A DNA stretch of 64,000 bases from Squalus acanthias. Its lineage: Eukaryota. The position numbers and the translations under genes were made by a program. The DNA lies in the NCBI GenBank assembly GCA_030390025.1, contig CM059432.1, forward strand, positions 68,264,001 through 68,328,000. Direction: 5' to 3'. Below the pieces are notes generated by a model. The model saw only the letters and a list, made by a program, of their open reading frames with translations, was not told where the DNA came from and searched no databases. Below, piece by piece: positions 7,859 to 7,895 of this stretch. Within the stretch, counting starts at the first letter, position 1. Each line of letters opens with the position of its first letter.

Positions 7859-7895
7859 AGTTCTGATGAAAGGTCATCGACCTGAAACGTCAACT
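7859..7895 (+). ncRNA. Minimal type I hammerhead ribozyme motif with canonical GUC site (predicted cleavage after 7891)
   Basis: Stem I AGTT/AACT; core CTGATGA; stem II AGGTC/GACCT; GAAA; palindromic loopless stem III ACGT. Confidence 0.82.

What the first reader, a model, noticed from the sequence alone, without database searches (positions are those of the whole stretch)
7859..7895. Minimal hammerhead ribozyme with palindromic stem III in the Penelope 3' end
Seen: AGTT-CUGAUGA-A-[AGGUC auc GACCU]-GAAA-CG-UC^AACU. All core nucleotides and a GUC triplet are present; stem III is reduced to the palindrome ACGU. Known: PLE pseudo-LTRs carry such minimal type I hammerheads, proposed to cleave as dimers. 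Other copies have GUU (3885, 45032) or CpG-decayed cores (47382-47410; degenerate at 26666).
Basis: partly seen in the sequence, partly recalled or inferred. Interest (0 to 1): 0.7.

Follow-up and report, generated by a model that had tools for sequence, protein, structure and literature searches.

The report
Ordinary Penelope-element minimal hammerhead motif
The 37-base motif is a real minimal hammerhead-ribozyme sequence at the tail end of a Penelope-like jumping gene in a shark-like genome; it likely cuts RNA only slowly, as a pair or with protein help, and this arrangement was described in 2014, so it is ordinary.

Summary
Observation confirmed base for base at 7859-7895. The motif lies 277 nt behind the stop codon of an unbroken 916-aa RT + zinc-linker + GIY-YIG ORF (4832-7582), a 5'-truncated Neptune-type Penelope-like element (PLE) with no 5' pLTR. 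It is not chance: a strict descriptor gives 3 hits against 0 in 40 shuffles, and a covariance model built only from distant PLE relatives ranks it first in the window (37.7 bits). Helices I and II covary strongly across families but not among the 5 window copies. All 3 short solo copies begin at the 5' edge of helix I, not at the cut site, which fits uncleaved templates. Kind described by Cervera & de la Pena 2014; the scan's index already holds 37 findings on it, including on other pieces of this genome. Cleavage is untested.

The parts
7859..7895 (+). Minimal type I hammerhead motif (helix I 4 bp, helix II 5 bp, stem III reduced to a 4-nt palindrome, predicted cut 7891|7892)
4832..7582 (+). 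Unbroken 916-aa PLE ORF: N-terminus matching relatives' start, DKG (320), RT YIDD (561), CX4CXXC linker (782-790), GIY-YIG endonuclease
7583..7961 (+). 3' UTR / 3' pseudo-LTR: pyrimidine-rich region, hammerhead, conserved tail; element ends at 7959-7961
   Evidence: family 3' ends pile up at 7959-7962
4828..4831 (+). 5' junction: element begins at about 4831, one base before the ATG, inside a CR1-like LINE that resumes at about 7960; 3-4 nt duplication, ambiguous, read by eye against the LINE paralogue at 40590-40720 (the TSD script returned only an uninformative 4-mer here)
3851..3979 (+). Short solo copy: intact GUU hammerhead + tail + about 30-nt extension; 14-nt target duplication with 1 mismatch
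44962..45066 (-). Short solo copy: intact GUU hammerhead (G.U at 10.1-11.1) + tail; 10-nt perfect target duplication overlapping both ends
46849..47480 (+). 5'-truncated copy of a sister subfamily (last 81 codons of the endonuclease, 89% identical; different 3' UTR); hammerhead at 47378-47414 with G8 and palindrome decayed
26660..26760 (+). Old degenerate solo copy (72 of 100 identical to the 7859 copy)
58403..58527 (.). Head-to-head inverted fragment of the same tail, starting inside helix II

Best explanation
This is the minimal type I hammerhead motif in the 3' pseudo-LTR of a 5'-truncated Neptune-type Penelope-like retrotransposon, and it is predicted to be inactive alone and likely to cut at 7891|7892 only slowly, when two copies pair through the palindrome or the element's protein helps it fold. 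Shown: motif, position, ORF, conservation and covariation of the same motif behind related ORFs. Inferred from PMC4209133 and PMC11167929: in tandem parent elements the transcript starts in an upstream pLTR and holds two such motifs; their palindromes form an intermolecular stem III, and cleavage trims the multimeric RNA into units. Cleavage is likely not required for insertion: the family's short copies keep the whole uncut motif. This particular copy has lost its 5' pLTR (promoter and partner motif), so its motif is most likely a passenger with no host role.
For: Exact fit to the published consensus: core, extra base after position 9, palindrome, short helix I. ORF relatives: 1778 proteins at E 1e-20 or better among 7999 scored; best named hits are shark proteins at 66-70% identity. 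Of 24 related metagenome loci (of 80 fetched) that reach the ORF end with 150 nt or more behind it, 13 carry a same-strand R1 hit 83-355 nt downstream; 6 of these were training sequences, 1 duplicates a training sequence, 1 is weak (E 0.06). L026 has the motif in both flanking repeats. Covariation in 11 relatives: 92% of cells paired against 52.5% shuffled, 7 of 8 pairs with two-sided change; with core-only selection and no pairing demanded, helix I is paired in 43 of 64 cells against a null mean of 24.5, 0 of 5000 shuffles. Monomer fold pairs core 7864-7868 with 7888-7892 (-9.5 kcal/mol against -5.9 for helices I+II), as expected of a motif inactive alone. Published assays: monomer no cleavage, dimer low; Anolis motif cuts only with protein, is not needed for insertion, and no RNA reads end at the cut site.
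Against: No cleavage or RNA-end data here. 11 of 24 eligible relatives show no downstream R1 hit (7 of them are the most distant, 31-36% identical). No two-sided change among the 5 window copies, and the tail is about as conserved as the motif (3 listed variant places in 7859-7895, 5 in 7896-7937 for run X1), so within-family data do not single the motif out. Pair 10.1-11.1 is A-U (G-C in 11 of 11 relatives) and most family copies have GUU; both are recalled to lower hammerhead rates (own knowledge, not from a call). The two-strand fold predicted for two copies is not the hammerhead dimer and the palindrome duplex is worth only -1.7 kcal/mol. The 11 sequences were picked partly because they pair, and some are close kin.
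Confidence: 0.8

Rival explanations
1. In this shark-like family the motif has become a catalytically silent structural element (a signal for the element's protein, for the transcript start or for RT stopping) that keeps the hammerhead look without cutting.
For: A-U or G.U at 10.1-11.1 in all 4 good window copies; GUU in 94%, 93% and 56% of depth in three contig runs; core-burying monomer fold; solo copies start at the 5' edge of helix I and none of the 3 starts at the cut site; cleavage dispensable for insertion in Anolis.
Against: All core bases and the palindrome are kept across families whose helices share no sequence. Published members include GUU triplets, G.U pairs and two A-U pairs at that position (Fig. 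S3 text). A loose-end consensus of 8 contigs in run X19 shows G-C there.
Confidence: 0.15
2. The motif cuts efficiently as a monomer and sets the end of transcripts that read through this locus, possibly with an effect on the host.
For: All core bases, GUC and both helices are present in this copy; the ORF is unbroken.
Against: No stable stem III; helix I pair probabilities 0.05-0.45 in four contexts; the published monomer showed no cleavage; the copy sits inside another repeat and GUC is a minority allele.
Confidence: 0.03
3. Chance resemblance to a hammerhead.
For: Rfam finds nothing; folding z-score only -1.64; the loose core pattern is common.
Against: 0 hits in 40 shuffles; independent model E about 1e-7; same motif at the same place behind related ORFs.
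Confidence: 0.01

Closest known systems
Minimal hammerheads (min-HHR) in the pseudo-LTRs of metazoan Penelope-like elements (Cervera & de la Pena 2014, PMC4209133)
   Same: Type I topology, full core, extra base between 9 and 10.1, palindromic minimal stem III, short helix I, position in the 3' pLTR, many dispersed single copies; 5'-truncated PLEs with only a 3' motif are listed in their Table S1.
   Different: A-U at 10.1-11.1 instead of the usual G-C; helix II of 5 bp with a 3-nt loop; no cartilaginous fish is among the motifs listed in their Fig. S3 or Table S1.
Neptune-clade PLEs (definition as in Craig et al. 2021, PMC8557442; Acropora digitifera Neptune motif in PMC4209133)
   Same: RT plus C-terminal GIY-YIG with a CX2-5CxxC linker; loci L027, L029 and L046 each carry a motif one base away from the published Acropora Neptune motif, and the L027 ORF is 49-53% identical to this one.
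   Different: This copy lacks the 5' pLTR; clade not tested by a tree with labelled references; Nematis shares the linker.
Anolis carolinensis Poseidon (PAc) hammerhead and tail (Frangieh et al. 2024, PMC11167929)
   Same: Hammerhead near the element's end; two preferred 3' ends about 30 nt apart (3946 against 3979 in the 3851 copy; loose ends at 7961-7962); uncut RNA as insertion template.
   Different: PAc is Poseidon clade and its ORF starts inside the hammerhead; in the relatives here the motif lies about 160-690 nt before the start codon.
Non-LTR retrozymes (bioRxiv 10.64898/2026.07.22.740005)
   Same: Type I hammerheads tied to PLE pLTRs; reported in the one chondrichthyan sampled.
   Different: Retrozymes are tandem non-coding repeats; the copies here are single, and this one is attached to an ORF.

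Membership tests
PLE minimal type I hammerhead (min-HHR) | Core CUGANGA ... GAAA ... UH | tested here: met
   7863-7869, 7884-7887, 7890-7891
PLE minimal type I hammerhead (min-HHR) | Helix I closes the 5' and 3' ends (type I), helix II hairpin | tested here: met
   4 bp and 5 bp, all Watson-Crick; helix II pair probabilities 0.67-1.0, helix I 0.05-0.45
PLE minimal type I hammerhead (min-HHR) | Stem III reduced to a palindrome | tested here: met
   7887-7890 is its own reverse complement
PLE minimal type I hammerhead (min-HHR) | Extra base after position 9 and a pair at 10.1-11.1 (usually G-C; typical, not part of the published descriptor) | tested here: met
   A7870 unpaired; pair is A7871-U7883, a deviation from G-C (11 of 11 relatives G-C) with two published A-U precedents
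PLE minimal type I hammerhead (min-HHR) | Located in a PLE pseudo-LTR, sense strand | tested here: met
   277 nt behind the stop codon; 83-355 nt in 13 of 24 relatives
PLE minimal type I hammerhead (min-HHR) | Covariation of helices I and II | tested here: met
   Across families 7 of 8 pairs (unbiased check); within the 5 window copies 0 of 9, uninformative
PLE minimal type I hammerhead (min-HHR) | Self-cleavage as dimer or with protein | not testable with these tools
   No assay; no raw RNA reads among the listed runs
Neptune-type EN+ Penelope-like element | Single ORF with RT and C-terminal GIY-YIG endonuclease | tested here: met
   Pfam RVT_1 E 2e-5 and GIY-YIG E 4e-4, both below curated cut-offs; DKG, YIDD and endonuclease residues invariant or nearly so in 20 aligned proteins
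Neptune-type EN+ Penelope-like element | CX2-5CxxC linker between RT and endonuclease | tested here: met
   Residues 782-790; shared with Nematis
Neptune-type EN+ Penelope-like element | Placement in the Neptune clade by RT phylogeny | not tested
   No labelled reference set was at hand; indirect link through Acropora-type loci only
Full-length (two-pLTR) PLE copy | pLTR with hammerhead at both ends | tested here: not met
   No pLTR sequence at the 5' junction; filed as a 5'-truncated copy
Rfam hammerhead families (canonical) | Score at or above a family's gathering threshold | tested here: not met
   0 hits; not filed under these

The most novel reading that the evidence does not exclude
In this family the RNA that gets copied has a defined 5' end just ahead of helix I (a transcription start or processing site), so uncut 'hammerhead + tail' RNAs of about 105-135 nt move as SINE-like units, and the ribozyme has been detuned (GUU, no G-C at 10.1-11.1, core-burying hairpin) into a switch that stays off until the element's protein or a second copy is present. 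Basis: 3 of 3 solo window copies with a whole motif start at the 7857-7860 equivalent, two with clear target duplications; 81 contigs of run X1 join unrelated sequence at 7859, and no such pile is listed at 7892 (469 rows not shown). Against: subfamily 3' UTRs diverge at the same place (194 contigs at 7857), a U-run there could simply stop RT, and invertebrate relatives show scattered 5' ends 24-300 nt upstream.
Probability: 0.2. Interest if true: 0.4.

Novelty: new member of a known kind. Interest (0 to 1): 0.13.

Why it matters
Little by itself: PLE minimal hammerheads are described, occur by the thousand in many animal genomes, and this scan has met them 37 times. The locus is a handy reagent for the open question of what PLE hammerheads do in vivo, because it joins an unbroken Neptune-type ORF to a natural GUC allele of a mostly GUU family; the protein-level work I read used a Poseidon-clade element. 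If the clustering of solo-copy 5' ends at the edge of helix I holds genome-wide, it would be direct genomic evidence that uncut RNA is the insertion template.

Tried and rejected
Whole genome: none is held for this window, so no genome-wide copy count or junction census. Rfam at gathering and E-value thresholds: nothing. Tail pattern in viral contigs: 0; ORF relatives in viral contigs: 0 confirmed. Tail pattern in prokaryote genomes: 3 bacterial contigs (L001-L003) with no R1 hit, taken as chance. Sequencing runs: no RNA holder listed; six holders are only guessed to be RNA and are contigs, so no statement on expression or RNA ends. The one raw DNA run (X21) laid only 10 reads and was uninformative. 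Contig depths are no copy number; contigs break at variable sites, so variants near 7859-7887 are probably under-listed (the window's own variants at 7867 and 7871 do not appear). The TSD script returned only chance 4-mers for the 26660 copy and the long copy. Two-strand folding cannot represent the hammerhead dimer. An intron reading (pyrimidine tract plus AG at 7859-7860, as in D. virilis where the intron ends at helix I, and a second acceptor-like site at the element's 3' end) was considered; I saw no convincing donor site by eye and left it as a lead. A search of earlier findings for the solo-copy start pattern gave 0; by sequence and by place also 0. Lunse et al. (PMC5785218) is not held: title only.

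Full report
Observation. The other four copies are where and as stated. The loose core pattern alone is not beyond chance (9 matches; 5 of 100 shuffles reach 9), and the 38-nt fold has a z-score of only -1.64. With both helices demanded, the window gives 3 hits against 0 in each of 40 shuffles. Rfam does not detect it.

Context. The motif lies 277 nt behind the stop codon of an unbroken ORF, ATG at 4832 to stop at 7582, 916 aa. Pfam gives RVT_1 and GIY-YIG, both below their curated cut-offs. 1778 proteins match at E 1e-20 or better among 7999 scored; several cover 95-100% of the query at about 50% identity, and the best named hits are shark proteins at 66-70%, hence 'shark-like' host (inferred). 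The ORF start aligns with the starts of relatives, and it has DKG, YIDD and a CX4CXXC linker; that linker marks Neptune and Nematis PLEs (PMC8557442, passages). The element begins at about 4831, one base before the ATG, and ends at 7959-7961, inside a CR1-like LINE (the LINE label is recalled, its RT pieces are Pfam hits). There is no pLTR sequence at the 5' junction. So this is a 5'-truncated copy with a whole ORF, one hammerhead motif, and probably no promoter of its own.

Relatives. A scan of metagenome contigs with the protein alignment found 430 confirmed stretches among 606 pattern matches and kept the best 80. The same motif architecture recurs with unrelated helix sequences. Using the core alone, with no pairing demanded, 16 non-redundant same-strand hits outside ORFs (false hits and longer-stem-III types included) have helix I paired in 43 of 64 cells against a null mean of 24.5 (0 of 5000 shuffles); hits inside ORFs are paired in 18%. 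Eleven of these motifs, chosen by me as clear examples (5 non-hammerhead or longer-stem-III types and duplicates left out), give 92% paired cells against 52.5% shuffled, 7 of 8 pairs with two-sided change, and G-C at 10.1-11.1 in 11 of 11. A model built from them, with no window sequence, ranks the five window copies first to fifth, 7857-7897 at 37.7 bits. Of 24 loci that reach the ORF end with 150 nt or more behind it, 13 have a same-strand hit 83-355 nt downstream: 6 training sequences, 1 duplicate of one, 6 new (one weak); 11 have none, 7 of them the most distant. L026 shows the full pLTR-ORF-pLTR layout with the motif in both repeats.

Within the family. The five window copies show no two-sided change in 9 pairs. 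Laying four public runs on 7690-7975 (4 of 22 listed runs, the only call allowed) placed 14,317, 1,809 and 2,745 contigs from three runs and only 10 reads from the raw run. Position 7891 reads T in 94%, 93% and 56% of depth, so GUC is a minority allele; the palindrome's CG is changed in 8% and 5% of depth in X1, as CpG decay would give. A loose-end consensus of 8 contigs in X19 has G-C at 10.1-11.1. The tail is about as conserved as the motif, so within-family data give no separate sign of selection. Twenty runs in 12 studies, under at least 8 organism labels, hold part of the element, 18 of them half of its words or more; one may be the window's own source.

Mechanism. Shown: motif, place, conservation across families. 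Predicted: the lone motif folds with its core paired to the palindrome and cut site (-9.5 against -5.9 kcal/mol; probabilities 0.5-0.99 in four contexts), though such models ignore the core's non-standard pairs. From papers: a schistosome min-HHR showed no cleavage alone and low cleavage as dimer or trimer (PMC4209133); the Anolis PLE motif cleaves only with the element's protein, is not needed for insertion in vitro, and no RNA reads end at its cut site (PMC11167929); a review states that such motifs likely act as dimers in tandem PLEs (PMC6765202, passages). Inferred: the parent elements use slow, conditional cleavage to trim multimeric transcripts; this copy carries the motif as a passenger. 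The intact solo copy at 3853, same strand and 4006 nt upstream, has the same helix I and palindrome and could in principle be a partner in a read-through RNA; it is an independent insertion with its own target duplication, and nothing shows such an RNA.

One side observation. The three solo copies with a whole motif (3851, 45066, 26660) all start within about 3 bases of the 5' edge of helix I, about 33 nt before the cut site; two have clear target duplications. They are closer to the 47378 subfamily than to the 7859 copy (97, 88 and 77 against 92, 84 and 72 identities). In run X1, 81 contigs join long unrelated sequence at 7859 and family 3' ends pile at 7960-7962; no pile is listed at 7892, but 469 rows are not shown, and 194 contigs diverge at 7857 because subfamily UTRs differ there. 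Invertebrate relatives show scattered 5' ends. This fits uncut templates; a defined RNA start there is possible but not shown.

Comparison and novelty. It works like, and meets the testable features of, the min-HHR of metazoan PLEs. The A-U pair and GUU have published precedents (Fig. S3 text). No cartilaginous fish is in that paper's Fig. S3 or Table S1 lists, and the listings of searches showed no paper devoted to shark PLE hammerheads; a 2026 preprint reports hammerhead-bearing retrozymes in the one chondrichthyan it sampled (its supplements are closed and may name the family). The scan's index holds 37 findings with these words, two of the eight shown from this genome; they agree with my reading, which was recorded before I saw them, and are not counted as support.

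What I saw of each paper. PMC4209133: main text parts 1-2 of 4, supplement PDF parts 1-2 of 3 as text, no figures. PMC11167929: parts 1-2 of 4. bioRxiv 10.64898/2026.07.22.740005: part 1 of 5 and passages. PMC8557442 and PMC6765202: passages. PMC5785218: title in a reference list only. One search (effect of the 10.1-11.1 pair and GUU on rate): listing only, so those rate effects are recalled.

Verdict. Real, correctly read, already described in kind. New member of a known kind; interest 0.13.

Noticed in passing
window 3851-3979 (+), 44962-45066 (-), 26660-26760 (+): All three solo copies start at the 5' edge of helix I rather than at the cut site; matching pile of junctions at 7859 in run X1.
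   Followed up: partly
window 4828-4834: The long copy's 5' junction falls one base before the ATG that aligns with relatives' start codons, leaving the ORF whole but without its 5' pLTR.
   Followed up: partly
window 7826-7861 and 7945-7961; 47346-47379: Pyrimidine tract ending in AG at the 5' strand of helix I in both long subfamilies, and a second acceptor-like tract at the element's 3' end; recalls the D. virilis pLTR intron that ends at helix I. No donor identified.
   Followed up: no
window 47512-48935: 37-bp tandem array in two blocks (about 1.4 kb, copies up to 99% alike) starting about 30 nt behind the 3' end of the 46849-47480 PLE copy.
   Followed up: no
window 62806-63993 (-), related pieces near 28226-28617, 29141-29383 and 21155-22186: 395-aa open frame with a DDE_Tnp_4 transposase domain (E 3e-40) and older dispersed relatives.
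   Followed up: no
window 26194-26246 (-) and 26704-26760 (+): Inverted duplication of the degenerate copy's tail together with its downstream flank.
   Followed up: no
window 58403-58527: Head-to-head inverted PLE tail fragment whose fold-back point lies inside helix II.
   Followed up: partly
L072:902-945, L081:899-942, L082:13-56; L066:3262-3301: Related PLE loci with hammerhead variants that have a longer palindromic stem III (6 nt), upstream or downstream of the ORF.
   Followed up: no
window 4832-7960: The element is held at 0.56-0.94 of sampled words by runs under eight organism labels: slow divergence or horizontal spread, not distinguished.
   Followed up: no
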